From a virus, in the IMG/VR virus record IMGVR_UViG_3300020056_002227, positions 32,001-96,000 of that record: a stretch of 64,000 bases of DNA. One strand, given 5' to 3'. A program made the position numbers and the translations under genes. Positions 11,888-35,617 of this stretch are shown here, piece after piece. A model generated the notes under the pieces. That model was not told the origin of the DNA. It saw nothing but the letters and a program-made list of their open reading frames with translations, and ran no database searches. Each line of letters begins with the position of its first letter. The first letter of the stretch is position 1.

Positions 11888-11916
11888 ATTATAATAGGAT
11901 TAAGAGTGCTTGTCAA
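11888..11916 (-). promoter_or_regulatory. sigma70-type promoter for the nuclease and tRNA cluster
   Basis: TTGACA-17 bp-TATAAT. Confidence 0.85.
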
Positions 11917-12655
11917 TAAAAATATAGTCTTTTTTATAATAATTTTTTAACCATTCTTCTTGGTGTGGAGTTATCATTTCTCGTGTGATTTTGTAGTTGG
12001 TTCTATTCATCACCTCTTCGGTCTGGAAGAATTTACCGATATCTTTTTTCCACACAAACTGAAACTCTTGGAAGTTCTTGGTATCAACAAACGAACACTG
12101 ATCGTGGAAATGATGCACTTGATGAATATCACGAATTACATCCATATTCTCAAAGAATAAGTGCCATCGGGTCTCATAGTCGAAAGTTGCAAGGTTTGTG
12201 CCATTCAGGTGATGCAAGAATGCATGATTGCCATAACTCCAATATCGCTCGGTCTCAACTAAATAAGCATTGACTGTAGAGAGAAACCTTTCGATGGGAT
12301 CAGTAAATATAACGATAGGCTTTGCAGTCCTTACAATCTCGGGATATCGCGGATCTGATCTCTTTATTGCATGACCTCTATCCCCTCGGCCGTGCTTTCC
12401 GTTGAACAATTCCTTAATGGTAACGGAACCACTTCTTGGTATCTCAAACCAATAGTTCTCTTCGTGTTCCGATAGTTTGTATAAGAGAGGCCACTTATTC
12501 TGATCGCAGTGCCAACATCTACAAAGAGTCTGTAGCGTCTTGGGTAATTGTAAGATATTAGGCCCCTGCTGTAAGTGATCAGCATTTTCGATTTTTACTG
12601 GTTGGGGGTGGCCTACTTGATTAAATTCTTTCAATAACTCATTACGATTTAACAT
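11900..12655 (-). CDS. Sulfotransferase family 2-like protein
   Basis: FEIPRSGSVTI (PAPS loop), DPIERFLS, HFHDQ, YYKKDY. Confidence 0.75.
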   Translation of the reverse strand: MLNRNELLKEFNQVGHPQPVKIENADHLQQGPNILQLPKTLQTLCRCWHCDQNKWPLLYKLSEHEENYWFEIPRSGSVTIKELFNGKHGRGDRGHAIKRSDPRYPEIVRTAKPIVIFTDPIERFLSTVNAYLVETERYWSYGNHAFLHHLNGTNLATFDYETRWHLFFENMDVIRDIHQVHHFHDQCSFVDTKNFQEFQFVWKKDIGKFFQTEEVMNRTNYKITREMITPHQEEWLKNYYKKDYIFIDKHS

Positions 12656-19433: not shown

Positions 19434-19976
19434 ATGAAACCAGTAATTCTATACAAGCACTTTGATCAAAAATTTGTCGATGAGATTTTAGCATTCCGAA
19501 CAGGATCGAGTTGGTTCAAAGGTCATATTCAGACCCAACCCAACTGGCCTACGATATATGATCCTATGACTCGACAAGTAGACTGTATCGAAATCAACGA
19601 TCAGTCCGTAAAGGACTTGCTATTCAAAGCAGCCCAAGAATATAACGATGGTATGGATATCACCCATATCGGCGAAGTACATCTTCTACGATATAATACT
19701 GGTGGTAAATTTATATGGCATTCAGATGTTTTAGAGAAAAGAGAACATCAAAGAAAGCTTACAATGGTCGTTCAGCTGTCAGAGCCAGAAAATTATGAAG
19801 GTGGAAAATTACAGGTTGCTGGGTTTGGAATGGAACCGTTTAGACATCTTGGTGATCTAACCATCTTCCCTTCTAATATGAGGCACAGGGTAACACCGGT
19901 TACCAAGGGAGTTCGATATTCCCTTATCACATGGATTTACGGACCTCCCCGACCATTAGATGAGGATTGGCACTAG
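19434..19976 (+). CDS. 2OG-Fe(II) oxygenase (prolyl-4-hydroxylase-like)
   Basis: WHSD...RKLT...YEGG...IFPS..HRVTPVTKGVRYSL. Confidence 0.9.
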   Translation: MKPVILYKHFDQKFVDEILAFRTGSSWFKGHIQTQPNWPTIYDPMTRQVDCIEINDQSVKDLLFKAAQEYNDGMDITHIGEVHLLRYNTGGKFIWHSDVLEKREHQRKLTMVVQLSEPENYEGGKLQVAGFGMEPFRHLGDLTIFPSNMRHRVTPVTKGVRYSLITWIYGPPRPLDEDWH

Positions 19977-23788: not shown

Positions 23789-25501
23789 ATGAGAATAAAT
23801 TTTAAACGTGTGAGATATAAAAATATCTTATCGACGGGGAATACGTTCACTACAATTGAAATGGATGAGAGTCCCACCACTCTTATCAGTGGTACCAACG
23901 GTAGTGGTAAATCAACATTACTTGATGCAATTGTGTTTGGGCTCTATGGCAAACCATTTCGGAAAATCAATAAACCACAGCTAGTAAATTCAATCAACCA
24001 AAAGGGAATGGTGGTAGAGATTGAATTCACGGTCAGTGGTCATGAGTATTTCATACGCAGAGGAATCAAACCTGCTGTATTTGAGATAATGAAGAACGGT
24101 GAATTGATTGACCAAGATGCAGCCAAACGAGACTACCAGACGTATCTTGAGCAGAACATACTCGGCATCAATTATAAATCTTTCAACCAAATTGTTGTTT
24201 TGGGTAGTGCAACTTATGTACCCTTTATGGAATTGCCTGCTCAAGCCCGCAGAGAAATCATCGAAGATCTACTCGATATTCAGGTGTTCAGTACCATGGG
24301 TATTTTGGCAAAAGAAAGACTCAGCAACAATAAAGATGCTATCAACGAAAACTCTTATCAGGTTGAAATCGTAGAATCCAATATTGCTCTCACCGAAGAC
24401 AATAACGATAAGATCCGTAAGATCCGAGAGACTGAGGTCGAAAAGATCCGTGATAAGATGACTACACATATCAATTCTATCGAAGAAAAGAATGAGTTGA
24501 TTTGTAAGATCAATGATGATATGCAAGAGCTATATGCCACAATCGATGACAAGGTAACTGTAAAAGAAAAATTTACAGAGGCTGGTCGATTGAAACAAGA
24601 CCTCGAGACAAAAAATAAGGCAATCGAAAAGGAATTGAGGTTCTATCACGACAACGATAACTGTCCAACCTGTAAACAGGGAATTGACCATGATTTTAAG
24701 AATAATGTTGTGGAAGAAAAATCAAAGCGGAATTTGGAAATCGAATCTGGCCTACACGATATTGCAGAACAGATCAAAAGGTATCAAGAAAGGCTTGATG
24801 AAATTAGTAAGGTGCAAGACCAAATCCAAGAAAAGAGTTTCGAAACCTCAGAAATTAAGGCCGAAATCAAGTCTTCTAAGAGTGCGCTCAATGCTTTCCG
24901 TGAAGAACTACTCGCCGCAGAGAAAGAGGTTGAAGACGTCGATACATCGACCCTCAAAGGACTACAGGAAAGGTTATCGACGTATCAATCTGAAAGGAAA
25001 GAACTCTTAGATGAGCAGACTACTCTGAATGTGGTATCTACCATTCTGAAAGACGGTGGCATTAAGAGTAGAATCATCGCACAATATATTCCAGTAATGA
25101 ATAAGCTGATCAACAAATACCTCGCCGCATTTGATCTGTTCGTTGATTTCCAGCTGGATGAAAATTTCAATGAGGTAATCAAATCTAGGTTCCGTGACAC
25201 ATTCTCGTATGCTTCATTCTCCGAAGGGGAGAAGCTGAGAATTACCTTATCTATTATGCTTGCCTGGAGATCGGTTGCAAAACTGAGAAACTCAGTATCG
25301 ACCAATCTGCTAATTCTTGACGAGACACTTGATGGTGCACTTGATGGAGTTGGTATTGAGAACCTCATTGAGACTTTACACGGCCTGAACTCTGATGACA
25401 ACATTTTCGTTATCAGCCACAGAGGTGATCAATTCGCAGAGAAGTTTGCCTCTCATGTTAAATTTAAGAAGATAAAGAACTTTAGTGAGGTTGCAGCATG
25501 A
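23789..25501 (+). CDS. 46: Recombination ATPase gp46 (Rad50/SbcC-like)
   Basis: GTNGSGKS, CPTC zinc hook, FSEGE, LILDE, ISH. Confidence 0.95.
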   Translation: MRINFKRVRYKNILSTGNTFTTIEMDESPTTLISGTNGSGKSTLLDAIVFGLYGKPFRKINKPQLVNSINQKGMVVEIEFTVSGHEYFIRRGIKPAVFEIMKNGELIDQDAAKRDYQTYLEQNILGINYKSFNQIVVLGSATYVPFMELPAQARREIIEDLLDIQVFSTMGILAKERLSNNKDAINENSYQVEIVESNIALTEDNNDKIRKIRETEVEKIRDKMTTHINSIEEKNELICKINDDMQELYATIDDKVTVKEKFTEAGRLKQDLETKNKAIEKELRFYHDNDNCPTCKQGIDHDFKNNVVEEKSKRNLEIESGLHDIAEQIKRYQERLDEISKVQDQIQEKSFETSEIKAEIKSSKSALNAFREELLAAEKEVEDVDTSTLKGLQERLSTYQSERKELLDEQTTLNVVSTILKDGGIKSRIIAQYIPVMNKLINKYLAAFDLFVDFQLDENFNEVIKSRFRDTFSYASFSEGEKLRITLSIMLAWRSVAKLRNSVSTNLLILDETLDGALDGVGIENLIETLHGLNSDDNIFVISHRGDQFAEKFASHVKFKKIKNFSEVAA

Positions 25502-26250
25502 AAGGAATTAAAACCCTAAAAACCAAGGGCATGAGTTTCGAAGGATTGGGTGATGATCTGGTAGAACTTCATACTCTCTACATGGAATTCTTCCATAAAA
25601 TGATGTATGATTGGTACTACGAGGTGCAACCGGATGATATTGTGGTTGACATTGGATCGTGTATAGGAATGTTTACGTGTCATGCATTAGACAAAGGTGC
25701 AAAAGAGGTTTATGCAATTGAACCGAACAGAGCACTGCTACGGACTACCCTCTATAATTCTTTCATGCACATATGTAATAATGCCAAATCGCCAGTAATC
25801 CCGATTAACGCATTTGTAGGTACATCAAATGAAAATGGATTTGGTGAATTTGACCCAAACGATGTACCCATGCTAGACTTTAAAGATTTCCTTAAATGGT
25901 ATTATATCGAAAAAATTGATTTTTTGAAAATCGACTGTGAAGGCGGAGAGTACGATATTCTCACCAAAGAAAATCTTCCTTGGATCCAAGAGAACGTAAA
26001 GCATATTGCAGTAGAGGTTCACATGATAAATGAAGAGTCTCGTGAAAAAATCAAGCGGTTCCGTGATGAATTCCTCGTTGGTTTTGAACCTTGGAAAATA
26101 AGGTTCTCGGGAAATGGTATGGCACATAAACTGACAGATAATTTTATTGACAATTATAAGATTGGTGATTGGGGTGGATGCTTCATGGTCTACATCTGTA
26201 ATGAATCTGCGCCACAACTCAAAGACCGACCAGTGGATTTTAAATATTGA
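25498..26250 (+). CDS. FkbM-family SAM methyltransferase
   Basis: VVDIGSCIG, AIEP, LKIDCEGGEY. Confidence 0.85.
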   Translation: MKGIKTLKTKGMSFEGLGDDLVELHTLYMEFFHKMMYDWYYEVQPDDIVVDIGSCIGMFTCHALDKGAKEVYAIEPNRALLRTTLYNSFMHICNNAKSPVIPINAFVGTSNENGFGEFDPNDVPMLDFKDFLKWYYIEKIDFLKIDCEGGEYDILTKENLPWIQENVKHIAVEVHMINEESREKIKRFRDEFLVGFEPWKIRFSGNGMAHKLTDNFIDNYKIGDWGGCFMVYICNESAPQLKDRPVDFKY

Positions 26251-26303: not shown

Positions 26304-28844
26304 ATGACTTCTTTCTATACATCCGTTGAAAGATTTGGCAACAACATCTTATGGCGCGGATATGAAAATGGCAAGCGCTTTTCGTACCGTGTTCCATTTC
26401 GACCAACTCTCTATCTACACACACCTAAGAAGGGTGGTGATTACAGGTCTCTCGTCGGCAACAAACCTCTGAATCCACACAAGTTTGGAGACATGCGAGA
26501 GGCTAAAGAATTTATCGAAACGTACAAAGATGTTGGTAATATGCAAATCTATGGCACTACCAACTATACTGCTCAATTCATTCAAGAAAACTATCCAGGC
26601 TCAATTGAGTTCGATATTAACCAGATCAATGTTGCATCATTCGATATTGAGGTTGATATTCGTGATGGCTATGCTGATATCGAACAAGCCGATAAAGAGG
26701 TAACATCGATCGCATATCACAGTTCTAGGAGTTCGAAATATACACTCCTTGCTGTAAAAGACTTTGACAAATATGCAACGATTACTGGTATCGATCCAGA
26801 TGATATCGACTTCATCAAATTCGATAACGAACTTCAATTGCTTCGACACTTCGTAGAACTCTGGTCATCTGATTACCCAGATGTTGTCACTGGCTGGAAC
26901 GTGGAATACTTTGATATCCAGTACGTTGTGACCAGAATCATTCGACTGTGTGGTGAAGATTTTGCCAAAAGACTCTCACCTTGGAAACACATTCAAAAGA
27001 AATCACACGAGGTGTTCAACAAAGTTCAATCGACGTATAAGATCTCTGGCATGACTGTCATTGATTACATGGACGCGTTCAAGAAATTCGGTTACAAATA
27101 TGGTACCCAAGAATCTTATAAACTCGACCACATTGCCTATACGGTACTCGGCAAGAAGAAACTTGACTATTCTGAATACGGTAACCTCACGGCTCTCTAC
27201 GATGAGAACCCTCAGCTGTATCTTGACTACAATCTTCGTGATACCCAATTGATCTCTGCTCTTGAAGAAGAAACCAGTCTTCTGGCTTTGGTTATGACCG
27301 TTGCATATGGTGGTGGGGTAGATTATAAAGACGCATTTGGTACCGTGGGTATCTGGGAGACAACGATCTATCGCAGATTGATGTCTGACAAAATCGTGCC
27401 ACCTCTCAAGGGTGGCCCTGGTGATCACTTAGATGGTCTCGTCGGTGGTTATGTAAAAGACCCAGTGCCTGGCATGCACCCATGGGTCGTATCGTTCGAT
27501 TTGAACTCTCTGTATCCACACCTTATGTTACAGTATAATATGTCACCTGAGACATGGGTCAGCGACAGGCGGGAATATGTGACACAAGAAATGGTTCTGA
27601 ATGGAGAATTCCAAAATGATGACCCGTCTGTGTCTGTCTGTGCTAATGGAGTGTGTTTCAGTAATGAAACGGTTGGCATGATCCCCGGTATCATTGATGA
27701 ATACTATAATCGTCGATCTCTGGTCAAGAAACAGATGCTTGCGGTAGAACAGCAACTCGAGGTGGAGACCGATGAGAGAGAAAGAAAGAAACTCAAACGA
27801 GAGGTGAATCAACTCCACAACTCACAAATGTCGATTAAGATTGCCATGAACAGCCTTTATGGTGCTACTGCTAACAGATACTTTCTATACTATATTTCTG
27901 AAATGGCAGAGGCAATCACCACATCTGGTCAGTTGTCTATTCGATATGCTCAGAAATCAGTCAACCAATACATGAATAAGATTCTGGGTACCGAAGACAA
28001 GGACTACATTATCTACATCGACACTGATTCGATCTATGTGAACTTTGCTGATCTGATTCAAGAGGTCTATGGTACCACCGATATCGACCGAAAACAAGGT
28101 GAGGAATTCCTTGATAAGGTGTGCTCCACCAAAATCGAACAGGTGATCGAGCAAGGATACGAGGAACTCAGATCAAAGATGACCGGATATCGTAACGCAA
28201 TGGTGATGAAACGAGAAAAGATTTCAGACCGTGCAATCTTCGTTGCTAAGAAACGGTACATTCTCAATGTGCTCAACTCTGAAGGTGTTCATTACGAGAA
28301 GCCAAAAATCAGTGTGACTGGTCTTGAATCGGTTCGATCTTCTACTCCAGAAATCTGTCGAGAGAAAATGAAACAGACGTTTGATGTGATTATGAATGGT
28401 ACCGAATCTGATACTCAGAAATTCATCAAAGACTTCAAAGATGAATTCCAATCGGCACCCATCGAAGATATTGCAAAGACTTCTGGTACTGACGATATCG
28501 AAAAATACAAAGACCGTACCACCCTATTCCGTAAGGGTACCCCGATTCACGTTCGTGGCTCTATACTATATAATCATCATCTGGCACAGAAAAAACTAAA
28601 TAAGAAGTATGAGTCAATTCAGTCTGGTGATAAGGTAAAACTGATCTATCTCAAGGTCCCCAATCCTATTCAGCAGAATGTGATCAGTTTCCCAGGCGTC
28701 TTGCCGAAGGAAATGGAGTTGACTAAATACATCGACTATGATACTCAATTCGATAAAGTTTTTCTGACACCGATCCAAGGTATCCTAGATGCACTTGGTT
28801 GGTCTGCTGAGAAGATTGATACCCTTGAAGATTTTTTTGGTTGA
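26304..28844 (+). CDS. 43: Family B DNA polymerase gp43
   Basis: FDIE, GWNVEYFD, DLNSLYP, KIAMNSLYG, YIDTDS, KKRY, C-terminal clamp-binding TLEDFF. Confidence 0.97.
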   Translation: MTSFYTSVERFGNNILWRGYENGKRFSYRVPFRPTLYLHTPKKGGDYRSLVGNKPLNPHKFGDMREAKEFIETYKDVGNMQIYGTTNYTAQFIQENYPGSIEFDINQINVASFDIEVDIRDGYADIEQADKEVTSIAYHSSRSSKYTLLAVKDFDKYATITGIDPDDIDFIKFDNELQLLRHFVELWSSDYPDVVTGWNVEYFDIQYVVTRIIRLCGEDFAKRLSPWKHIQKKSHEVFNKVQSTYKISGMTVIDYMDAFKKFGYKYGTQESYKLDHIAYTVLGKKKLDYSEYGNLTALYDENPQLYLDYNLRDTQLISALEEETSLLALVMTVAYGGGVDYKDAFGTVGIWETTIYRRLMSDKIVPPLKGGPGDHLDGLVGGYVKDPVPGMHPWVVSFDLNSLYPHLMLQYNMSPETWVSDRREYVTQEMVLNGEFQNDDPSVSVCANGVCFSNETVGMIPGIIDEYYNRRSLVKKQMLAVEQQLEVETDERERKKLKREVNQLHNSQMSIKIAMNSLYGATANRYFLYYISEMAEAITTSGQLSIRYAQKSVNQYMNKILGTEDKDYIIYIDTDSIYVNFADLIQEVYGTTDIDRKQGEEFLDKVCSTKIEQVIEQGYEELRSKMTGYRNAMVMKREKISDRAIFVAKKRYILNVLNSEGVHYEKPKISVTGLESVRSSTPEICREKMKQTFDVIMNGTESDTQKFIKDFKDEFQSAPIEDIAKTSGTDDIEKYKDRTTLFRKGTPIHVRGSILYNHHLAQKKLNKKYESIQSGDKVKLIYLKVPNPIQQNVISFPGVLPKEMELTKYIDYDTQFDKVFLTPIQGILDALGWSAEKIDTLEDFFG

Positions 28845-28869
28845 CAATCAAAACATTTTGTGTTATAAT
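28841..28869 (+). promoter_or_regulatory. sigma70-type promoter for the glycosyltransferase cluster
   Basis: TTGACA-17 bp-TATAAT. Confidence 0.85.
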
Positions 28870-28894
28870 AGACGAGATATATTAGAGGTACTGC

Positions 28895-29212
28895 ATGAAC
28901 AGTAGTTTAAAAGAATACACCAAAGACACATCGGTCGAGTATGATGACATGCTCGACTATGTCGCAGATGAAAACATCACCGATACACTGTCTGAATTTC
29001 TTGGGGAAGAACAAGAATACAAGCCAACCGTATCACGAGGCAAGGCAGATCCCAATTTTCCAGAATCGTGGCAGACGTTGTATGTGAATTTCGAAACCGA
29101 ACAAGATTATATTGATTTCATGTTGGCAATTGATGAGAAGCCCATGCCCAGATTGAAATCAGTTGTATACAAAGGTGGCCGACAAGATAATGGCATCTTG
29201 GACTTATTTTAG
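28895..29212 (+). CDS. Small acidic protein, apparent paralog of the next gene's N-terminal domain
   Basis: VNFETEQDYIDF...KSVVY vs IHFKTQEDRQHF...NYVYY; ends GILDLF. Confidence 0.7.
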   Translation: MNSSLKEYTKDTSVEYDDMLDYVADENITDTLSEFLGEEQEYKPTVSRGKADPNFPESWQTLYVNFETEQDYIDFMLAIDEKPMPRLKSVVYKGGRQDNGILDLF

Positions 29213-29220
29213 GAGTTATT

Positions 29221-30447
29221 ATGTATCAACCTGCTCAGACACATGAAGAATTGCAACACGAATGGAAAAATCAGTACATACAATGGTATGCTGCTGGGAT
29301 GCCCTCTTTCCAAGCTCCGAAGAAAGAAATTTTCAAACGGCTACCCATTCACTTCAAGACGCAAGAAGATCGTCAACACTTCAGTGATCGGCTGGGATAC
29401 AATCTAACAAAGAAAACCAATTACGTCTATTACCCAGAAAAGGGCCGTGAAGCAAATCGAATGAACCGTTACGAAGAAGAAGATAACGGTCTGCTTCCTC
29501 GGTACCCGATCTATATTATCAGTAAGGGTCGATGGGATACGCGACACACTGCAAAGTCGCTAGAAGAATTGGGTATCCCTTATTTCATTGCGGTAGAACC
29601 TCAAGAGTATGACAAATACGTAGAGGCAACACCACCGGGTCTTGGAACGGTATTGAAATTGCCGTTTTCTAATCATGGTAAGGGATCTGGGCCTGCACGT
29701 AATTGGTGCTGGGAACATTCACAGGCAAACGGTTTTGAAAGACATTGGTTGATGGACGACAATATCGAGCGCTTCATTCGACTACATAATAACAAACGAT
29801 ATCGTGTTGCTAAGGGTGCGGCTATCTTCCGTGCTACCGAAGATTTTGTAGACCGATATGAAAACATCGCACTTGCTTCTTTTCAATACAAGGCGTTTGT
29901 GGTAGAGGGTTGTCCGTATCAACCGTTCATTCTCAATACACGAATGATGTCCTGTATTTTGATTGACAATAACTGTCCTCACAAGTGGAGAGGCAAATTT
30001 AATGAAGACGTTGATCTCAGTATTCGTGTTCTCAAAGAAGGGCTTTGTACTGTTTTGATGTATGCTTTTGTTCAAGGTAAACTCCGAACCGGTACGGTCA
30101 AGGGTGGAAACACGACTGAGGTGTATGAAGACTATCAGGTAGATGATGAAAACGATCCAGCGTATAATAAATCTAGGATGCTAAAAGAAATGCACCCAGA
30201 TTGTGTTACACTGGCAGAAAGATATGGTAGGGTTCATCATCACGTAGATCTTGATGCAATCAAAAACAAAGATGGGTATCCTGCACGACAAAATGCTTTG
30301 ATATTAAAGAAAGATGTACCCATTATTAATAAGGTAGATAACTACGGAATGAGATTGATGCGCAATTGGGGTACTGATGAACAATACCCAGACCCCAGTT
30401 TTGAGATCGATGAATTCCCTGCTGGGAGGCCTTCAGTTCATGGCTAA
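29221..30447 (+). CDS. GREB1/TET-associated (TAGT)-type glycosyltransferase with N-terminal accessory domain
   Basis: YPIYIISKGR, ARNWCW, HWLMDDNI, NEDVDLSIRVLK, KGGNT. Confidence 0.75.
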   Translation: MYQPAQTHEELQHEWKNQYIQWYAAGMPSFQAPKKEIFKRLPIHFKTQEDRQHFSDRLGYNLTKKTNYVYYPEKGREANRMNRYEEEDNGLLPRYPIYIISKGRWDTRHTAKSLEELGIPYFIAVEPQEYDKYVEATPPGLGTVLKLPFSNHGKGSGPARNWCWEHSQANGFERHWLMDDNIERFIRLHNNKRYRVAKGAAIFRATEDFVDRYENIALASFQYKAFVVEGCPYQPFILNTRMMSCILIDNNCPHKWRGKFNEDVDLSIRVLKEGLCTVLMYAFVQGKLRTGTVKGGNTTEVYEDYQVDDENDPAYNKSRMLKEMHPDCVTLAERYGRVHHHVDLDAIKNKDGYPARQNALILKKDVPIINKVDNYGMRLMRNWGTDEQYPDPSFEIDEFPAGRPSVHG

Positions 30448-31285
30448 AATATTAATTACTGGTGGTGCTGGCTTTGTCGGTTCACATCTTGCAGAAAGAC
30501 TGGTCGCAGATGGCCATGAAGTTATCTCTTATGATAACTACTTTACCGGATCGAAAGATAATCATGTTGACGGTGTTACCTATATTGAAGGTTGTACGAC
30601 ACTACTGACACCGAATCATTTCTTTGATCTGGATCTTGTATATCATCTGGGTGAATACTCTCGTGTAGAGCAATCATTCGAAGATATTGAACGTGTACAC
30701 AAATACAATATCGAAGGTACCACTCGGGTCTTAGAATGTGTTCGTGAATGGGGCTGTAAGATTATTTACTCTGGTTCTTCCACTAAATTTGCTGACCGTA
30801 ATGACAAAGATTATGTGATGAGCCCCTATGCCTGGTCTAAGGCAAAGAATACCGAATTGGTTAAGATGTATGCTGAATGGTTCGGTATCGATTATGCTAT
30901 CACCTATTTTTATAATGTATATGGCCCGAGAGAAATCGCAGACGGCAAGTATGCTACATTAATTGCTAAATACTCTAAATTGATGGAACTTTCTGGTGTA
31001 TTACCGGTTGTATCACCTGGTACTCAACAAAGAAACTTCACACACATCGACGATATTGTAGATGCTCTGGTTCTGATTGGAGAAAATGGTCATGGTGATG
31101 AATATGGTATCGGTCACCCAGAGAGATTTACTGTATTAGATGTTGCAGAAATGTTCGGTGGTGAGATTGATATGTTGCCTCCCCGGCCAGGAAATCGAAT
31201 GGCAGCAGATGTAATCACCGATAATACACGAGCACTTGGCTGGGAACCAAAAAGAAATCTAGTAGATTATATTACTAATATGTAA
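30440..31285 (+). CDS. NAD-dependent nucleotide-sugar epimerase/dehydratase
   Basis: LITGGAGFVGSHL, SPYAWSK (YxxxK), FYNVYGP, RNFTHIDD. Confidence 0.92.
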   Translation: MAKILITGGAGFVGSHLAERLVADGHEVISYDNYFTGSKDNHVDGVTYIEGCTTLLTPNHFFDLDLVYHLGEYSRVEQSFEDIERVHKYNIEGTTRVLECVREWGCKIIYSGSSTKFADRNDKDYVMSPYAWSKAKNTELVKMYAEWFGIDYAITYFYNVYGPREIADGKYATLIAKYSKLMELSGVLPVVSPGTQQRNFTHIDDIVDALVLIGENGHGDEYGIGHPERFTVLDVAEMFGGEIDMLPPRPGNRMAADVITDNTRALGWEPKRNLVDYITNM

Positions 31286-31300
31286 TCAAGGACTAATATT

Positions 31301-32218
31301 ATGATTCAAGTTGAAAACTACATTGAGACCAAACCGTCTTTATTTGCCTTTGTAGAAGATGTTGAACCAGAATCGACGTTCAATGTTGCCGATCTGGTGA
31401 GAGATTTGATTGCTGATTATTCGAATCAAACTGTTCAAAAATATACCGTCTATATTCCATCAAAGGGCAGGTCAGATCAACACACCACTTATGATATCTG
31501 CAAGGAAGAAAATATTCCTTGTAAGGTTGTAGTGGAACCTCAAGATTTTGAGCAATATGCACAGAATATTGAAACAGACGATATTTTGGTTTTAGATAAA
31601 AATGACCAGGGTGTTCAATATGCCCGTACATGGATTAAAAGATATTCGATTCAAGCCAATGAAGAGTATCACTGGCAATTCGATGACGATATGAGATCAT
31701 TTACCATGAGGGTTGATAATAAGAACAAGAAGGTAAGTGTAAGACACGCAATCTCAATCATCGAACAAGTGGCAACCCTTTTCGAAAACTTTGCGGTTGG
31801 TGGTATGACCTCAAGTGCATTTGCTTTTTCTAAGCCAGCACCTGTAAAGACCAATCAACTGGGATACGGTTGTACCTTTATCAATAATGGCTTTGACCAA
31901 GAATGGAGAGATAAGACTGTAGAGGATTGGGATTATACCTTACGTGCATTAGAAGCCGGAATGTGTACCCTGTCATTTTCTCATATCAATTTTCAAACTC
32001 CCTCGTCTGGTACGAACAAGGGTGGCAACAATCTTACCGATTGGGCTACCATGGAAAAGAGAAAAGAATTCTATGATTACTTTGCCTCACTCTGGCCGGA
32101 CAATTTTAGGGTCGTTGAGATAACAACCGAGAGTTCACGTAAGGGTTACAAGTTGGAACACAAGAGGCGCTTTTTCAATGACTACAAAAACCTAAAATTA
32201 AAATTAAAAACCTCTTGA
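31301..32218 (+). CDS. Second GREB1/TAGT-type glycosyltransferase
   Basis: VYIPSKGR, YARTWI, HWQFDDDM, VEDWDYTLR, KGGN. Confidence 0.72.
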   Translation: MIQVENYIETKPSLFAFVEDVEPESTFNVADLVRDLIADYSNQTVQKYTVYIPSKGRSDQHTTYDICKEENIPCKVVVEPQDFEQYAQNIETDDILVLDKNDQGVQYARTWIKRYSIQANEEYHWQFDDDMRSFTMRVDNKNKKVSVRHAISIIEQVATLFENFAVGGMTSSAFAFSKPAPVKTNQLGYGCTFINNGFDQEWRDKTVEDWDYTLRALEAGMCTLSFSHINFQTPSSGTNKGGNNLTDWATMEKRKEFYDYFASLWPDNFRVVEITTESSRKGYKLEHKRRFFNDYKNLKLKLKTS

Positions 32219-32243
32219 CAAATAACACGAGGTGTATTATAAT
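32215..32243 (+). promoter_or_regulatory. sigma70-type promoter
   Basis: TTGACA-17 bp-TATAAT. Confidence 0.85.
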
Positions 32244-32270
32244 GAACACTTACCTTAAAAGGATATCTCT

Positions 32271-32885
32271 ATGAAGCACTGCATCATTGACTTTGAGACC
32301 ATGGGCGTAGATGCAGGTAACTGTGTAGTTATCGACATGTCAGCATTTGTATTTGACTGGGATAGATTCACCTCAGCAAAGCCCTATGGTTTCGAAGACG
32401 TTGCTGATGTTAGAAAATTCAAGTTTGATGTGAAAGAGCAGGTTACTAAATATAATTTTACAATCGACCCAGATACCGTAAAATTCTGGGAGAGTCAACC
32501 TTCAGACGTTCGAAAGAATATTGCTCCGAAGAAAACAGACATAAGTATTGAACAGTTTACCGACGACTTCGTAGATTTCCTCATTCCGCATGGAAAGATT
32601 TCTTATTGGTGGTCACGATCTAATACTTTCGACCCTGTTATTTTGTGGCGCTTATATAATGCTGTAGGTAAAAACAAGAAGATTCATGAGTATCTACCTC
32701 ATTGGACTCTCCGTGATACGAGATCGTGGATAGATGCAAAATTAGATTTCCCAAAAAAGAATGGGTTCTGTCCAATTGAGGACGAACAATTGTGGGAATC
32801 AACATTCAAGCATCATGATAGTGCTTGGGATGTATTGGCAGATGTAATGAGATTACAGCGCATTGATCGTGCCGAAAAACTTTGA
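32271..32885 (+). CDS. dexA: DexA-like DEDD 3'-5' exonuclease
   Basis: IIDFETMG, WSRSNTFD, RDTRS, HDSAWD. Confidence 0.85.
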   Translation: MKHCIIDFETMGVDAGNCVVIDMSAFVFDWDRFTSAKPYGFEDVADVRKFKFDVKEQVTKYNFTIDPDTVKFWESQPSDVRKNIAPKKTDISIEQFTDDFVDFLIPHGKISYWWSRSNTFDPVILWRLYNAVGKNKKIHEYLPHWTLRDTRSWIDAKLDFPKKNGFCPIEDEQLWESTFKHHDSAWDVLADVMRLQRIDRAEKL

Positions 32886-33808
32886 CTATATACACTATGG
32901 AGAAAAAAATGTTCACACAGGCATCAATCGCTAAAGTAGATATGCCCCCAAACGGGATCAAATTAGATATGGACAATAATAAATTAGGGCTCGGTATTGT
33001 AGGTAAAGGCTTCGTTGGTGGGGCTGTTTCTGCTGGATTTGATACCAAGAATGTTAGACAACACGTGGTAGATCCCAGGCATTCGACACTGTCGCTTGAA
33101 GACCTGGCTGATATCAACCCAGATATTATCTTTATCTGTCTACCCACTCCCTGTCAGCTGAATGGTAAGGTAGATGCATCTCTGATTGCTAATACTCTAC
33201 ACAAATTTAACAGTGAGAAATATGAGGGTATTGTCGTTATCAAGAGTACCGTGGCTGCATCTGTACTAGATGCCTTTGTGAAGACATATGAAAATTTGAA
33301 TATCGTTTATAATCCAGAATTCTTGACCGAGGCAAATGCTAACGACGATTTCATTAACCCACCCTTTCAGATCTTTGGTGGTGAATGGGATCTATGTACA
33401 AAGGTCGAGCAGATGTACATTCAATACAGCAAGGTCAAGCCCGTACCGTCATTTAAGATGGATATCAAGGCTGCAAGTTTTCTTAAGTATACCGTCAACA
33501 GTTGGTTGGCAACCAAGGTCACTTTCTTCAATGAACTGAGACTCCTTTACGATACATATAATATGGAAACATCGTGGGAAGAGTTTGTTGGTGTTTTGGC
33601 ACACGAACCACGGATTGGTGCATCACATATGAATGTACCTGGCCCCGATGGTCAATACGGTTTCGGTGGGAATTGTTTCCCGAAAGATACCAAAGCCTTT
33701 GTAGAAGAATCCCGAAATTCTTCTATGCTGTCATTACTGGCAACGGCAATCGAACTAAATAATTCAATGAGAAACAGCGTGAAACTAGAAGAGGTAAAAA
33801 ATGGCTGA
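32882..33808 (+). CDS. UDP-glucose/GDP-mannose dehydrogenase family (short form lacking the C-terminal domain)
   Basis: GIVGKGFVG, ICLPTP, IKSTV, NPEFL, GFGGNCFPKD catalytic Cys. Confidence 0.9.
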   Translation: MTIYTMEKKMFTQASIAKVDMPPNGIKLDMDNNKLGLGIVGKGFVGGAVSAGFDTKNVRQHVVDPRHSTLSLEDLADINPDIIFICLPTPCQLNGKVDASLIANTLHKFNSEKYEGIVVIKSTVAASVLDAFVKTYENLNIVYNPEFLTEANANDDFINPPFQIFGGEWDLCTKVEQMYIQYSKVKPVPSFKMDIKAASFLKYTVNSWLATKVTFFNELRLLYDTYNMETSWEEFVGVLAHEPRIGASHMNVPGPDGQYGFGGNCFPKDTKAFVEESRNSSMLSLLATAIELNNSMRNSVKLEEVKNG

Positions 33809-34013
33809 AAACAATTTGAAGCGTGAACTACTCGAAGCACTGAAAATGGGTTTCGAATCGAACATCCAACGGCATAAAGTAAATATTCAGGTGTTACTAA
33901 ATAATGCTGTTGGTGTTGCAGAGCACCCTGACGTTATGGAAACCGTCGAAGGTGAACTGTCGAAAATGGCTGAGTATGAAGATAAACTTGAAATGCTCCA
34001 AAAATACTTCTAA
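33801..34013 (+). CDS. Conserved hypothetical protein
   Basis: NAVGVAEHPDVMETVE...YEDKLE. Confidence 0.7.
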   Translation: MAENNLKRELLEALKMGFESNIQRHKVNIQVLLNNAVGVAEHPDVMETVEGELSKMAEYEDKLEMLQKYF

Positions 34014-34028
34014 TCGGAATTTTTTATT

Positions 34029-34892
34029 ATGGACCTAAAAATCAGTACCGAAGATCTTAGAAAGTACAGTCTCTTTGTAGGTACACCCATGTATGGTGGT
34101 CAGTGTTCTGGTTTGTTCACTAAGGCATGTACAGACCTTTCCTTGGTTTGTGGTGCACACGGAATCCCACTTAAATTCTATTATCTTTTTAATGAGAGTT
34201 TGGTACAAAGAGCTCGTAACTATGTCGTAGATGAATTTCTTCGGTCTGATTGCACTCACCTTCTTTTCATTGATTCCGATATTGGGTTTCAGGCAAGAGA
34301 CGTTCTTGCACTTCTAGGGATTCAAACCTCTGACCCCGAAAAATATAATATCGTGACTGGCCCTTACCCCAAGAAAACAATTGCTTGGGAAAAAGTGTCG
34401 AAGGCAGCTGCAGAGGGTTTTGGCAAAGATGATCCTTTTCAACTGAATCAGTTCACTGCTGATTACGCATTCAATCCTGTTAAGGGTCAAACGAATCTTA
34501 AACTATCGGAGCCCATCGAAGTGGCAGAAGCAGGAACTGGATTCATGCTTATCCCTCGGGAAGTCTTAGAGAAATATAAAGAGGCTTATCCTGAACTCTC
34601 TTATAAGCCCGATCATGTTCGAACAGATAACTTTGATGGTAGCAGAGAGATCACAGCATTCTTTGATTGTGTGATTGACCCCGAAACCAAACGATATCTG
34701 TCTGAAGATTATTTCTTTTGTAAACAGGCCCGAGCTATTGGAATCTCTGTATGGATGTGTCCTTGGATGCAACTGAATCATGTAGGTTCTTATATCTTTA
34801 CTGGTAATATGGCTGCAATTAGTCGTATCGGTGCATCTGCTACGGCAGATAAAACGGCCAGTAGAAAAAACTACAAAAAGAAGAAAAAGTGA
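34029..34892 (+). CDS. GT-A fold glycosyltransferase-like protein, common in marine T4-likes
   Basis: GTPMYGG, ESLVQRARN, LFIDSDI (DxD), GTGFMLI, SEDYFFC, LNHVG. Confidence 0.75.
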   Translation: MDLKISTEDLRKYSLFVGTPMYGGQCSGLFTKACTDLSLVCGAHGIPLKFYYLFNESLVQRARNYVVDEFLRSDCTHLLFIDSDIGFQARDVLALLGIQTSDPEKYNIVTGPYPKKTIAWEKVSKAAAEGFGKDDPFQLNQFTADYAFNPVKGQTNLKLSEPIEVAEAGTGFMLIPREVLEKYKEAYPELSYKPDHVRTDNFDGSREITAFFDCVIDPETKRYLSEDYFFCKQARAIGISVWMCPWMQLNHVGSYIFTGNMAAISRIGASATADKTASRKNYKKKKK

Positions 34893-34921
34893 TTGACATT
34901 TAACCCAACTTGTTATATAAT
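34893..34921 (+). promoter_or_regulatory. sigma70-type promoter for 45-44-62
   Basis: TTGACA-17 bp-TATAAT. Confidence 0.85.
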
Positions 34922-34954: not shown

Positions 34955-35617
34955 ATGAAATTTTCTGAACGTACACTAACCATTCTCAAGAGCTTTGCAG
35001 GAATTAACAAATCCATTCTCATGCGAGAAGGGAGTGTTCTTAAGACAATTACACCTGAAAAGACTCTCATTGCGATCGCTAATATCCCTGATGAGATCCC
35101 GTCAGAAGCATGTATCTATGATATGTCTCGTTTTCTGTCAATTTTATCGCTTTACGAGGATCCCGATGTTGAGTTTAATGATAAATACTTCATTATCTCA
35201 GAGGGTCGGCGTCGTACCAAGTACATCTACGCTGACATTTCAATGATTCATACTCCGCCTGAGAAAGAGATTTCGATCCCTTCCGAAGACGTTGTTGTTG
35301 ATGTGAAATGGGATGATTTACAGTCCGTACTGAAGGCTGCTGGCGTCCTTCAGTTTAGTGAGGTTGCATTTGTTGGCGAAAGCGGCAAGTGTTATCTCAA
35401 GGCAATCGACAGTTCTACCGAAAATGCTGACGACTTTGATGTTGAAATCGGAGACACTGACGATACGTTTAAGATTATCATTAAAACCGATAACCTTAAA
35501 CTGCTACCTCAAGACTATCGGGTTACGCTTTGCAGCAAAGGTATCTCAGAGTTTCGAGGCAAGGATGTCACGTACTTCGTGGCAATTGATTCTAAGTCGA
35601 CTTATAACAAAGGATGA
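34955..35617 (+). CDS. 45: Sliding clamp gp45
   Basis: MKFSERTLTILKSFAGINKSI...IYDMSRFLSILS. Confidence 0.93.
   Translation: MKFSERTLTILKSFAGINKSILMREGSVLKTITPEKTLIAIANIPDEIPSEACIYDMSRFLSILSLYEDPDVEFNDKYFIISEGRRRTKYIYADISMIHTPPEKEISIPSEDVVVDVKWDDLQSVLKAAGVLQFSEVAFVGESGKCYLKAIDSSTENADDFDVEIGDTDDTFKIIIKTDNLKLLPQDYRVTLCSKGISEFRGKDVTYFVAIDSKSTYNKG

What the first reader, a model, noticed from the sequence alone, without database searches (positions are those of the whole stretch)
28841..34892. Candidate new DNA glyco-hypermodification system: two TAGT/GREB1-type glycosyltransferases with their own nucleotide-sugar pathway
Seen: directly after gp43 an early promoter drives a small acidic ORF, GT1 (IISKGR...HWLMDDN...NEDVD...GGN), an NAD-dependent epimerase and GT2 (IPSKGR...HWQFDDD...VEDWD...GGN). 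DexA, a UDP-sugar 6-dehydrogenase and a third GT-A protein follow before the sliding clamp. Established: GREB1/TAGT/base-J-glucosyltransferase-type enzymes glycosylate hydroxymethyl-pyrimidines in DNA, and T-even phages keep their DNA modification genes beside gene 43. Dehydrogenase plus epimerase typically yields UDP-uronic acids (GlcA/GalA) or derived sugars. Inference: this phage makes its own donor and uses two or three GTs, sequentially or in different sequence contexts, to put a uronic-acid or disaccharide glycan on hmC or hmU as anti-restriction/anti-CRISPR armour. dCMP deaminase and dUTPase, which both feed dUMP, would fit an hmU (base-J-like) acceptor but are not diagnostic. No hydroxymethylase or TET/JBP is visible in the window.
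Basis: partly seen in the sequence, partly recalled or inferred. Interest (0 to 1): 0.8.

Follow-up and report, generated by a model that had tools for sequence, protein, structure and literature searches.

The report
Clamp-linked phage DNA sugar-transferase cassette
An uncultured salt-marsh T4-like phage carries, between its DNA polymerase and sliding-clamp genes, a conserved cassette of DNA-type sugar transferases, sugar-nucleotide enzymes and a small protein that probably docks on the clamp, but no known gene for the modified base that such transferases normally decorate.

Summary
Two Pfam TAGT glycosyltransferases, an SDR epimerase-like enzyme, DexA, a UDP-sugar dehydrogenase and a third GT-A protein lie between gp43 and gp45, behind perfect early promoters.

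About 70 environmental T4-like contigs conserve a core of acidic ORF, small domain plus TAGT, SDR, short dehydrogenase and GT3. GT2 is a rare accessory gene. GT3 also sits beside gp45 in phages that lack TAGT.

New points:
- The acidic ORF ends in a tail like the clamp-binding tail of gp43.
- Its folded half is paralogous to the GT1 N-domain.
- That domain family is otherwise fused to TAGT, or forms the C-terminus of ParB-like proteins encoded directly upstream of TAGT genes.

Together these favour DNA glycosylation at the replication fork.

No ThyA-type hydroxymethylase or 5-hydroxycytosine synthase, TET/JBP, C5-methyltransferase or TGT was found in the 170-kb record. Only one partial ThyA turned up in 34 relatives' records. 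ThyX is canonical, and the genome avoids restriction palindromes. The acceptor is therefore unknown, and blanket T4-style modification is unlikely.

This scan reached the same reading earlier for a like cassette in another genome (e1-5700297). There is no chemistry.

The parts
26304..28844 (+). gp43 DNA polymerase (context). Its C-terminal tail ...TLEDFFG (28821-28841) is the reference clamp-binding tail of this clade.
   Evidence: Pfam DNA_pol_B and exo domains, phrog_262 at 1e-295. The tail is conserved as T[LI]E[DNS]FF[GST] in relatives.
28841..28869 (+). Early sigma-70-type promoter P1 (TTGACA-17-TATAAT, 12/12, with TG extension) driving the acidic ORF, GT1, SDR and GT2.
28895..29212 (+). 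Small acidic protein (105 aa, pI 4.1). It has an acidic N-terminal half, a roughly 40-aa alpha/beta domain paralogous to the GT1 N-domain, and a C-terminal tail GILDLF (29192-29209) resembling the gp43 clamp-binding tail. Proposed clamp adaptor.
   Evidence: No Pfam, PHROG or NCBIfam hit. Present in about 60 related loci, with a conserved tail [GS][IL]x[DGNS][FL][FLM]G[DE]. hhalign to the N-domain family gives prob 80.5%, E 1.3e-5. The strict tail motif occurs in only 3 of 173 ORFs against 0.11 expected. Complex prediction with gp45 gives weak support, 0.37 against a best control of 0.01.
29221..30447 (+). GT1 (408 aa): N-terminal partner domain (29221-29499), TAGT GT-A catalytic domain (29503-30108), and a conserved C-terminal region (30109-30447; HPD...ERYGRxHHHVD...NKVDNYGM).
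   Evidence: Pfam TAGT 1.7e-44, phrog_842 6.9e-43. AF2 pLDDT 86, GT-A fold. Invariant S101, R104, D179, D180, E262, D263, D265 and GGN295-297. In most relatives it is split into an ~88-aa ORF plus a ~315-aa TAGT ORF.
30440..31285 (+). Extended SDR nucleotide-sugar enzyme (281 aa from the internal ATG; overlaps the GT1 stop by 8 nt). UXS-like overall but without the decarboxylase Glu, so probably a 4-epimerase.
   Evidence: PF01370 9.8e-41. Best PDB match is human UDP-glucuronate decarboxylase at 6e-26, about equal to short GalE at 1e-25. GxxGxxG and YxxxK are kept, and UXS Glu120 aligns with Thr. No NCBIfam model reaches its cut-off.
31301..32218 (+). GT2 (305 aa), a second, divergent TAGT paralogue without the partner domain or the C-terminal region. 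Accessory gene.
   Evidence: Pfam TAGT 2e-24. 25% identical to GT1, catalytic motifs kept. True orthologues only in L027 and L072. Present in a 2024 seawater variant contig.
32215..32243 (+). Second perfect early promoter P2, ahead of dexA, the dehydrogenase, the 70-aa ORF and GT3.
32271..32885 (+). DexA-like 3'-5' exonuclease. Probably an ordinary replication-module gene rather than part of the glycosylation chemistry.
   Evidence: PF16473 3e-14, phrog_255 6.8e-33. Its position within the cassette varies among relatives.
32969..33808 (+). Short UDP-sugar 6-dehydrogenase (about 279 aa; the ORF opens at TTG 32882). It has the Rossmann and central domains with catalytic GGNCFPKD, and no UDP-binding C-terminal domain.
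   Evidence: PF03721 and PF00984 only. TIGR03026 2.7e-39, below cut-off. Alignment to 3gg2 covers residues 78-305 of 450. PF03720 is absent from the record. It belongs to a family of more than 7,400 short (262-300 aa) proteins.
33801..34013 (+). 70-aa helical ORF of unknown function (phrog_1811).
   Evidence: conserved in close relatives
34029..34892 (+). GT3 (287 aa): GT-A fold glycosyltransferase with a DSD motif and a Lys-rich tail. A conserved neighbour of gp45 even in phages without TAGT, so its membership in the system is uncertain.
   Evidence: phrog_1574 8.9e-60. AF2 pLDDT 86; Foldseek hits STIV A197 at 5e-9 and GalNAc-T2. Homologues lie beside the clamp gene in Stenotrophomonas phage DLP6; further homologues are in Cr30, phiM12 and pelagiphages.
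34893..34921 (+). Third perfect early promoter P3, ahead of gp45.
34955..35617 (+). gp45 sliding clamp, the proposed docking site of the acidic adaptor.
   Evidence: PF09116 5.1e-19, phrog_223 4.8e-70

Best explanation
The region is a replication-fork-coupled DNA glycosylation cassette.

The core unit is a TAGT-family GT-A transferase (GT1) carrying a small 'partner' domain, together with a free acidic copy of that domain. The free copy ends in a tail like the one gp43 uses to hold the gp45 sliding clamp. The free copy is proposed to pair with the GT1 N-domain and so park the transferase on the clamp behind the polymerase, where it transfers sugar to newly made phage DNA. This pairing and parking are inferred.

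The short dehydrogenase and the SDR are proposed to make the donor from host UDP-glucose: UDP-glucuronate, then its 4-epimer or a related product. This is inferred from family and from relatives.

GT2 is an accessory paralogue that may add a second sugar or serve another sequence context. GT3 may contribute but is not specific to the cassette.

The acceptor in DNA is not identified. None of the known routes to a hydroxylated or hydroxymethylated pyrimidine, or to a 7-deazapurine, is encoded in the available 77% of the genome. Any modification is probably partial rather than a complete base replacement.
For: 1. Family. GT1 and GT2 score 152.6 and 87.1 bits on Pfam TAGT (cut-off 27.5) and keep all invariant motifs. 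The characterised TAGT member, the T2/T6 beta-glucosyl-HMC-alpha-glucosyltransferase, acts on DNA (PMC13216743).

2. Context. Early promoters and a position between gp43 and gp45. The order acidic ORF, partner domain plus TAGT, SDR, short dehydrogenase, GT3, gp45 is kept in about 70 IMG/VR contigs at 40-90% identity. GT1-type TAGTs also lie in replication modules of unrelated cultured phages: Paraglaciecola GD1, Vibrio henriette 12B8 and Kuja.

3. Clamp tail. 23 acidic-ORF homologues end in [GS][IL]x[DGNS][FL][FLM]G[DE], like the gp43 tail T[LI]EDFF[GST] of the same phages. The strict motif occurs at only 3 of 173 C-termini against 0.11 expected. T4 alpha-GT binds gp45 (PMC13216743, citing Sommer 2004).

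4. Complex prediction of gp45 with acidic protein residues 50-105: weak support. Median score 0.37, best control 0.01. The mark was reached by 58 of 80 solved complexes and 2 of 110 mismatches. At scores of 0.60 or below, however, it was reached by only 7 of those 80 and by both mismatches. The runs agree in at least 92% of contacts and partner pLDDT is at least 66. My own alignments were used, and because clamp-peptide complexes have been solved the pass may reflect likeness.

5. Partner domain. hhalign of the acidic family against the GT1 N-domain family gives prob 80.5%, E 1.3e-5. In L080 an acidic-type domain, an N-domain and TAGT are fused in one 465-aa protein (prob 90%, E 1.7e-6).

6. 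Wider distribution of the partner domain. An exhaustive profile search finds 2,682 cluster representatives. These include N- and C-terminal fusions to TAGT and a large class of 190-260-aa proteins. In that class 18 of 49 sampled members carry an N-terminal ParB_N domain (best 1.1e-9). Both of the members I looked up are encoded directly upstream of, and overlapping, a TAGT gene. Phage ParB-like proteins with an N-terminal nucleotide-binding domain and a C-terminal dimerisation domain are shown partners of DNA thymine dioxygenases (bioRxiv 10.1101/2025.08.14.668559).

7. Donor. The catalytic Cys motif of the dehydrogenase is intact. In a sister subclade the SDR slot holds an enzyme whose PDB matches include 6zl6 and MoeE5 (8.4e-47, 7.5e-33), which I recall to be UDP-glucuronate 4-epimerases. 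GT plus epimerase pairs yield hexuronic-acid-5hmC (Pyle et al.).

8. Metatranscriptome contigs 100% identical to parts of GT1, GT2, dexA, the dehydrogenase and GT3 exist in salt-marsh runs. DNA carry-over is not excluded.
Against: No acceptor pathway was found. PF00303, PF12851, PF00145, PF01702, PF03819, and T4 alpha-GT and beta-GT are all absent from the record. Pfam scans of about 90 early ORFs show only ThyX, SHMT, dCMP deaminase, dUTPase and RNR.

ThyA is absent from 33 of 34 relatives' records.

The genome avoids restriction palindromes. CATG and AGCT are the two most under-represented of 136 tetramers. Five of the ten most under-represented of 2,080 hexamers are palindromes, with Mann-Whitney p = 0.0024. 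This is unexpected if every C or T carried a sugar.

The phage carries many other glycan enzymes that have no DNA link: GT17, GT25, sulfotransferase-like proteins and at least four FkbM methyltransferases.

The dehydrogenase lacks its UDP-binding domain, and its short family also occurs beside GT-B genes in phages without TAGT.

One GT1 homologue, in Vibrio phage 1.076.O, lies between the portal and head-morphogenesis genes.

All binding and chemistry are inferred.
Confidence: 0.55

Rival explanations
1. This is a T-even-like system in which a dCMP or dUMP hydroxymethylase (or a 5-hydroxy-dCMP synthase, or a TET/JBP enzyme) encoded in the missing ~23% of the genome supplies hmC, hmU or 5hoC, which GT1, GT2 and GT3 then coat with a uronic-acid glycan.
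For: The record is linear and estimated 77% complete. Five cultured phages with GT1-type TAGTs each encode a ThyA homologue. Kuja belongs to the Ackermannviridae; that this family uses hmU-derived bases is my recollection. Thousands of phage 5mYOX escape the Pfam TET model (bioRxiv 10.1101/2025.08.14.668559). dCMP deaminase, MazG-like and dUTPase genes are embedded in the cassette in relatives. Other notes of this scan report hmC operons with TAGT in other marine T4-like phages (e1-5354241, not checked here).
Against: None of the ~79 related loci holds a ThyA homologue within 10 kb of the TAGT gene. Only one partial ThyA was found in about 1.3 Mb of relatives' records. In T4, gene 42 lies beside gene 43, and that neighbourhood is fully covered here. 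A canonical ThyX with SHMT points to normal dTMP supply. There is no dCTPase/MazG and no C5-methyltransferase. Palindrome avoidance argues against full replacement. The ThyA of Paraglaciecola GD1 has the canonical D169/N177 motif, so TAGT without a hydroxymethylase occurs elsewhere too.
Confidence: 0.15
2. The transferases do not act on DNA. They glycosylate a protein (a virion, replisome or host protein) or a host envelope glycan. On this view the SDR and dehydrogenase are auxiliary metabolic genes for a phage-directed glycan, like the other glycan enzymes of this genome.
For: The genome is rich in glycan-tailoring genes (GT17, GT25, sulfotransferase-like, FkbM methyltransferases). GT3 and the short dehydrogenase are widespread in phages without TAGT. 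No acceptor base pathway was found. Restriction-site avoidance is present. One TAGT homologue lies among head genes. About 65% of phage contigs found with DNA-GT profiles lack a base-modification enzyme nearby (Pyle et al.). From memory, GREB1, a eukaryotic relative of this fold family, is reported to glycosylate a protein.
Against: This model does not explain the clamp-type tail, the repeated fusion or pairing of the partner domain with TAGT and with ParB-like proteins, or the fixed position in the replication module under early promoters.
Confidence: 0.25
3. The cassette is a decaying remnant with no present function.
For: The dehydrogenase lacks a domain. GT1 is split in many relatives.
Against: All ORFs are intact and the catalytic motifs invariant across 30 homologues. 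The short dehydrogenase is a family of thousands. The split and fused forms both keep full-length domains. The cassette is conserved over 40-90% sequence divergence.
Confidence: 0.03

Closest known systems
T2/T6 beta-glucosyl-HMC-alpha-glucosyltransferase (TAGT, PF20691) within the T-even glucosyl-hmC system
   Same: Same Pfam family and GT-A fold. Early gene of a T4-type replication region. Acts (there) on phage DNA after replication.
   Different: T2/T6 TAGT adds glucose to an existing alpha-glucosyl-hmC and depends on gp42, gp56 and alpha-GT; none of these is found here. tblastn with GT1 or GT2 finds no T-even phage at all. Here the enzyme carries an extra partner domain and a C-terminal region and comes with its own sugar-nucleotide enzymes.
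Metavirome 'subclass II' DNA-glycosylation clusters: GT-A plus sugar epimerase next to C5-methyltransferase and 5mYOX (Pyle et al., bioRxiv 10.1101/2023.12.21.572611)
   Same: A GT-A DNA-type transferase translationally coupled to an SDR epimerase. One such pair yields hexuronic-acid-5hmC. Clusters near gp45, DNA polymerase and secondary GTs were noted there.
   Different: No methyltransferase or dioxygenase here. An added short dehydrogenase. A clamp-tail adaptor rather than (or beside) ParB.
Phage ParB-like regulator plus thymine dioxygenase pairs (O'Toole et al., bioRxiv 10.1101/2025.08.14.668559)
   Same: A small C-terminal domain on a DNA-tracking partner protein is needed by, or placed next to, a DNA base-modifying enzyme. 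The partner domain of GT1 and the acidic ORF belongs to a family whose other members are C-terminal domains of ParB_N proteins encoded directly upstream of TAGT genes.
   Different: Here the DNA-tracking part is replaced by a clamp-binding tail, and the enzyme is a glycosyltransferase. I did not test whether the ParB proteins of that paper carry this same domain.
T4 alpha-glucosyltransferase binding to gp45 (Sommer et al. 2004; PMC13216743)
   Same: A DNA glycosyltransferase tied to the sliding clamp so that modification follows the fork.
   Different: Alpha-GT is a GT-B enzyme that binds gp45 itself. Here a separate adaptor protein is proposed.
Arabinosyl-5-hydroxycytosine systems of RB69/DLP3 and the Thanatos pentose-cytosine system (PMC13326640, PMC12838424)
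   Same: T4-like phages with several DNA glycosyltransferases and a phage-encoded NDP-sugar pathway.
   Different: Those use GT-B transferases, a ThyA-homologue 5-hydroxy-dCMP synthase (D169N) and an arabinose-5-phosphate route. None of these is present here.

Membership tests
TAGT (Pfam PF20691) glycosyltransferases | Match to the family profile above the curated cut-off | tested here: met
   GT1 152.6 bits, GT2 87.1 bits, cut-off 27.5; confirmed on the genome
TAGT (Pfam PF20691) glycosyltransferases | GT-A fold with conserved acidic metal/donor motifs | tested here: met
   AF2 model pLDDT 86 with GT-A matches such as SpsA. The DD, EDxD and GGN motifs are invariant in 30 sequences.
TAGT (Pfam PF20691) glycosyltransferases | Genomic association with TET/JBP or another source of a hydroxymethyl-pyrimidine or glucosyl-hmC acceptor | tested here: not met
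   No PF12851, PF00303, PF00145, alpha-GT or beta-GT in the 170-kb record. The record is about 77% complete.
TAGT (Pfam PF20691) glycosyltransferases | Sugar transfer to DNA | not testable with these tools
   Needs biochemistry
T-even glucosyl-hmC pathway | dCMP hydroxymethylase (gp42, ThyA family) | tested here: not met
T-even glucosyl-hmC pathway | dCTPase/MazG-type pool editing and GT-B alpha/beta-glucosyltransferases | tested here: not met
   PF03819, PF09198 and PF11440 are absent. The PF09198 control rang nowhere, so that negative is weak.
Metavirome GT-A plus epimerase DNA hypermodification clusters (Pyle et al.) | Adjacent GT-A and SDR epimerase genes | tested here: met
   The GT1 stop overlaps the SDR start. 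The pairing is kept in relatives.
Metavirome GT-A plus epimerase DNA hypermodification clusters (Pyle et al.) | Neighbouring C5-methyltransferase and 5mYOX | tested here: not met
   None seen in the gaps of the related loci that I inspected; those gap ORFs were read by eye and not scanned for families.
UDP-glucose/GDP-mannose 6-dehydrogenases | NAD-binding and central domains with the catalytic Cys | tested here: met
   PF03721, PF00984; GGNCFPKD aligned to the active-site Cys of 3gg2
UDP-glucose/GDP-mannose 6-dehydrogenases | C-terminal UDP-binding domain (PF03720) | tested here: not met
   Absent from the protein, from the record and from the listed homologues
UDP-xylose synthase / UDP-glucuronate decarboxylase (extended SDR) | Catalytic Thr/Ser-Tyr-Lys plus the decarboxylase Glu (human UXS Glu120, recalled from memory) | tested here: not met
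   Best PDB match overall, and Tyr-x3-Lys is kept, but the position aligned to Glu120 is Thr
T4-type sliding-clamp-binding proteins | C-terminal hydrophobic tail like that of gp43 | tested here: met
T4-type sliding-clamp-binding proteins | Physical binding to gp45 | tested here: inconclusive
   Complex prediction gives weak support, 0.37 against 0.01

The most novel reading that the evidence does not exclude
TAGT-type enzymes that are delivered to DNA by a dedicated partner domain, hooked either to the sliding clamp (as here) or to a ParB-like CTP clamp, glycosylate phage DNA at an acceptor made by none of the known routes. The acceptor would be either a canonical base or another DNA hydroxyl/amine, or a base made by an unrecognised hydroxylase. 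That would be a new chemistry of DNA glycosylation, widespread in marine T4-like phages.
Probability: 0.18. Interest if true: 0.9.

Novelty: new variant of a known kind. Interest (0 to 1): 0.62.

Why it matters
The function of 'solitary' TAGT glycosyltransferases is an open question stated in the 2026 literature: 288 of 753 GT-bearing phages have them.

This cassette gives a concrete, testable model. A partner domain links the transferase to a DNA-tracking protein, here the gp45 clamp through a polymerase-like tail. A phage-made uronic-type donor feeds the transferase.

The cassette is common in salt-marsh and seawater T4-like phages. If the DNA is indeed glycosylated without a known precursor base, that would reveal either a new acceptor chemistry or a new base hydroxylase. 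It would also matter for sequencing, restriction and CRISPR targeting of abundant marine phages.

If the target is not DNA, a family-based annotation used widely ('beta-glucosyl-HMC-alpha-glucosyltransferase') is misleading for hundreds of phages.

Tried and rejected
- Megablast of the region against cultured phages found nothing.
- A sequence-profile search of the PDB with the TAGT alignment found nothing.
- The Iyer et al. 2013 paper that defined TAGT is not held, so its statements are not cited.
- The 2OG-Fe(II) oxygenase at 19434-19976 was considered as the missing hydroxylase and rejected. It is PF13640 (prolyl-hydroxylase type), and in every relative that covers the site the flanking ORF is followed directly by uvsY.
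- ThyX was considered as a hidden hydroxymethylase. Its RHRxxSxxxxSxR motif is canonical and nothing supports the idea.
- A separately encoded UDP-binding domain for the dehydrogenase: none found.
- A 7-deazaguanine route: no TGT.
- The ORF at 11155-11862, whose tail looked clamp-like under a loose pattern, is a GIY-YIG-type endonuclease and fails the strict pattern.
- A 434-aa TPR/FkbM-like ORF outside the window also ends in the strict motif. It was not followed up.
- Laying public runs on the region gave only assembled contigs, which cannot show base modification, transcript ends or expression level. Stretches without RNA cover mean nothing.
- Classifying the ThyA homologues of phiAS5 and Kuja by motif failed with my patterns.

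Full report
**What is there**

The window is bases 32001-96000 of a 169,742-bp linear IMG/VR virus record that CheckV puts at 77% complete. It is a distant T4-like phage. Its gp43 is at most 45% identical to any cultured phage, the nearest being Phage C48C1 and cyanomyoviruses. Near-identical DNA occurs in salt-marsh and seawater metagenomes of 2018 and 2024.

Between gp43 (26304-28844) and gp45 (34955-35617), all on the + strand, lie:
- a 105-aa acidic ORF
- GT1 (408 aa)
- an SDR enzyme
- GT2 (305 aa)
- a DexA-like exonuclease
- a UDP-sugar dehydrogenase
- a 70-aa ORF
- a 287-aa protein, GT3

Three perfect 12/12 TTGACA-17-TATAAT promoters stand at 28841, 32215 and 34893. The region is therefore read as early units: acidic ORF to GT2, dexA to GT3, and gp45 onward.

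**The enzymes**

GT1 and GT2 both hit Pfam TAGT far above the cut-off (152.6 and 87.1 bits against 27.5). They also hit PHROG 842, 'beta-glucosyl-HMC-alpha-glucosyltransferase'. An alignment of 30 homologues keeps S101, R104, D179-D180, E262-D263-x-D265 and G295-G296-N297 invariant, in GT2 as well.

The AF2 model of GT1 (pLDDT 86) is a GT-A fold, with SpsA-like and GalNAc-T-like matches. No solved structure is a sequence relative.

GT3 has no Pfam hit, but its model (pLDDT 86, pTM 0.86) is GT-A. The best PDB match is the STIV A197 viral glycosyltransferase at E 5e-9.

The SDR has GxxGxxG and YxxxK. Its best PDB match is human UDP-glucuronate decarboxylase (6e-26), essentially tied with short UDP-glucose 4-epimerases (1e-25). 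The residue aligned with the decarboxylase Glu is Thr, and no Asp-Glu dehydratase pair is present. It therefore looks like an epimerase of undetermined substrate.

The dehydrogenase keeps the Rossmann motif and the catalytic GGNCFPKD. It stops after the central domain, and the UDP-binding domain PF03720 is not in the protein or anywhere in the record. This is not a truncation accident. More than 7,400 proteins of 262-300 aa share this two-domain form. Some lie in ~240-kb marine phage contigs beside GT-B genes and without TAGT.

**Conservation and anatomy of the cassette**

A scan of IMG/VR with GT1 gave 79 loci. tblastn of the window's proteins on them shows the order gp46 ... gp43, acidic ORF, GT1, SDR, (dexA), dehydrogenase, GT3, gp45, gp44 in about 70 contigs at 40-90% identity.

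- **GT2 is accessory.** Separate orthologues exist only in L027 and L072. Elsewhere the 'GT2' hits are cross-matches on GT1.
- **GT1 is usually two genes.** These are an ~88-aa ORF equal to GT1 residues 1-90 and a ~315-aa TAGT ORF.
- **The SDR slot holds two unrelated enzymes.** One is the type seen here (58-84% identity). The other is a 318-aa type only 25-28% identical, whose PDB matches include 6zl6 and MoeE5. I recall both to be UDP-glucuronate 4-epimerases. This supports a uronic-acid donor for the cassette in general.
- **GT3 is not specific to the cassette.** It is a general neighbour of the clamp gene in Stenotrophomonas phage DLP6, and homologues occur in Caulobacter Cr30, the Sinorhizobium phiM12 group, pelagiphages and some cyanophages, none of which appeared among the TAGT hits.

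In five contigs the partner-domain ORF plus TAGT pair stands alone near gp23, behind a GIY-YIG-type ORF. In relatives, dCMP deaminase, MazG-like, dUTPase, extra GT-B and methyltransferase genes are inserted in the cassette.

**The small proteins**

The acidic ORF (pI 4.1) has no family. Its last residues, GILDLF, and those of 22 homologues (GLLDFF, GILNFFGD, GLESFFGG, SLEDLFGG and others) resemble the C-terminal tail of gp43 in the same phages (TLEDFFG, TIEDFFT). By analogy with T4 and RB69, that tail is the clamp-binding peptide. A strict form of the motif occurs at only 3 of 173 ORF C-termini in the record, against 0.11 expected by chance. Two of the three are gp43 and this ORF.

A complex prediction of gp45 with residues 50-105 gave weak support:
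- The median score was 0.37 and the best control 0.01.
- The mark was reached by 58 of 80 solved complexes and 2 of 110 mismatches. At scores of 0.60 or below it was reached by only 7 of those 80 and by both mismatches.
- The runs agree in at least 92% of contacts, and partner pLDDT is at least 66.
- My own alignments were used, and solved clamp-peptide complexes may be remembered by the model.

The folded half of the acidic ORF is paralogous to the GT1 N-domain (hhalign prob 80.5%, E 1.3e-5). In L080 an acidic-type copy, an N-domain copy and TAGT are fused in one 465-aa protein (prob 90%, E 1.7e-6).

An exhaustive profile search with the N-domain found 2,682 cluster representatives (819 below 1e-10). 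They fall into three groups: free small proteins, N- and C-terminal fusions to TAGT, and a large class of 190-260-aa proteins with the domain at the C-terminus. Of 49 of the latter, 18 hit ParB_N (best 1.1e-9), and the consensus shows a GHxRxxA box. The two I looked up are each encoded directly upstream of, and overlapping, a TAGT gene, in phage replication contexts.

Phage ParB-like proteins with a nucleotide-binding domain, a linker and a C-terminal dimerisation domain are experimentally required partners of phage thymine dioxygenases. They co-occur with GTs (bioRxiv 10.1101/2025.08.14.668559). T4 alpha-GT binds gp45 (PMC13216743). The simplest reading is that this domain couples TAGT to a protein that rides on DNA, and that in this phage clade the rider is the gp45 clamp.

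**The missing acceptor**

The record has none of the following:
- a ThyA-family enzyme (dCMP or dUMP hydroxymethylase, 5-hydroxy-dCMP synthase)
- TET/JBP
- a C5-methyltransferase
- TGT
- MazG
- T4 alpha-GT or beta-GT

Pfam scans of about 90 early ORFs found ThyX, SHMT, RNR, glutaredoxins, dCMP deaminase, dUTPase and one PF13640 oxygenase. They also found GT17, GT25, sulfotransferase, cytidylyltransferase and several FkbM methyltransferases.

ThyX has the canonical RHRSFSFQEFSQR motif. The oxygenase is absent from all relatives that cover its site. Among 34 related records (12-108 kb each), only one has a ThyA fragment, at a contig end more than 20 kb from the TAGT gene.

Cultured phages with GT1-type TAGTs do encode a ThyA homologue. 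At least that of Paraglaciecola GD1, however, has the canonical thymidylate-synthase motif. The missing ~23% of the genome, or an unrecognised fold, could still hide a hydroxylase.

**Evidence on the extent of any modification**

With a maximal-order Markov expectation, CATG (0.66) and AGCT (0.75) are the two most under-represented of 136 tetramers. ACATGT, GGCGCC, TCCGGA, TCTAGA and AGTACT are among the ten most under-represented of 2,080 hexamers. Palindromic hexamers as a class are depleted (median 0.94 against 1.00, p = 0.0024).

This signature of selection by Type II restriction is not expected if every C or T were shielded. I recall that T4 shows no such avoidance, but I did not test that here. 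Any modification is therefore likely partial or context-specific, or it serves another purpose.

**Verdict**

DNA glycosylation at the fork by a TAGT enzyme with a phage-made uronic-type donor is the best-supported mechanism (about 0.55).

Similar solitary TAGT and GT-plus-epimerase clusters have been counted in surveys (PMC13216743; bioRxiv 10.1101/2023.12.21.572611). This scan reached the same reading for a like cassette in another genome (e1-5700297).

Three things are added here: the breadth of conservation, the accessory status of GT2 and GT3, and the link of the partner domain to ParB-like proteins next to TAGT genes.

Noticed in passing
window 11155-11862 (-); L025 8839-9534, L031 8941-9645, L029 9255-9974, L036 9264-9971: A GIY-YIG-type (Seg-like) ORF of ~235 aa. 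In relatives its homologues sit immediately upstream of the acidic ORF or TAGT cassette, including the five contigs where the TAGT pair stands alone near gp23. This suggests the cassette moves by homing.
   Followed up: partly
window 32969-33808 and P0001-P0120: The two-domain 'short UDP-glucose dehydrogenase' without the UDP-binding domain is a family of more than 7,400 proteins (262-300 aa). It is also found in ~240-kb marine phage contigs next to a GT4-type gene. How it holds its substrate is unexplained.
   Followed up: partly
window 25498-26250, 9201-10007 (-); genome 141476-142780; early region of the record: Unusual load of glycan-tailoring genes: at least four FkbM-type methyltransferases (one directly upstream of gp43, and in L072 one directly after the GT2 orthologue), sulfotransferase-like ORFs (for example window 11900-12655), GT17, GT25 and a cytidylyltransferase. 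They hint at a methylated or sulfated glycan of unknown target.
   Followed up: no
window 19434-19976: A PF13640 2OG-Fe(II) oxygenase inserted between a conserved 163-aa ORF and uvsY. It is absent at this site in all relatives examined.
   Followed up: yes
whole record (G000): Clear avoidance of palindromic restriction sites (CATG 0.66, AGCT 0.75, ACATGT 0.17, TCTAGA 0.29, TCCGGA 0.29). Palindromic hexamers are depleted with p = 0.0024.
   Followed up: yes
L080 5866-7263 and 7295-8458: A 465-aa TAGT with two tandem partner domains fused at its N-terminus. It is preceded by a DPPY-type DNA methyltransferase-like ORF and followed by a 387-aa ORF with a 'DHPLQRNH' stretch that may be ParB/Srx-like.
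   Followed up: partly
L040 12999-15549, L043 14069-16602, L072 2475-5403: In relatives the cassette also holds MazG-like, dCMP deaminase, a 'DLYPTPP' methyltransferase-like ORF and a 357-aa GT-B-like ORF. These assignments were made by eye from motifs only.
   Followed up: no
genome 141476-142780 (outside the window): A 434-aa ORF with weak TPR and FkbM hits also ends in a clamp-tail-like motif (...LDDIEEFLN).
   Followed up: no
L097/L098 (Tenacibaculum phage PTm1): Its ThyA homologue is interrupted by a ~250-aa insertion within one 527-aa open frame (intein- or endonuclease-like).
   Followed up: no
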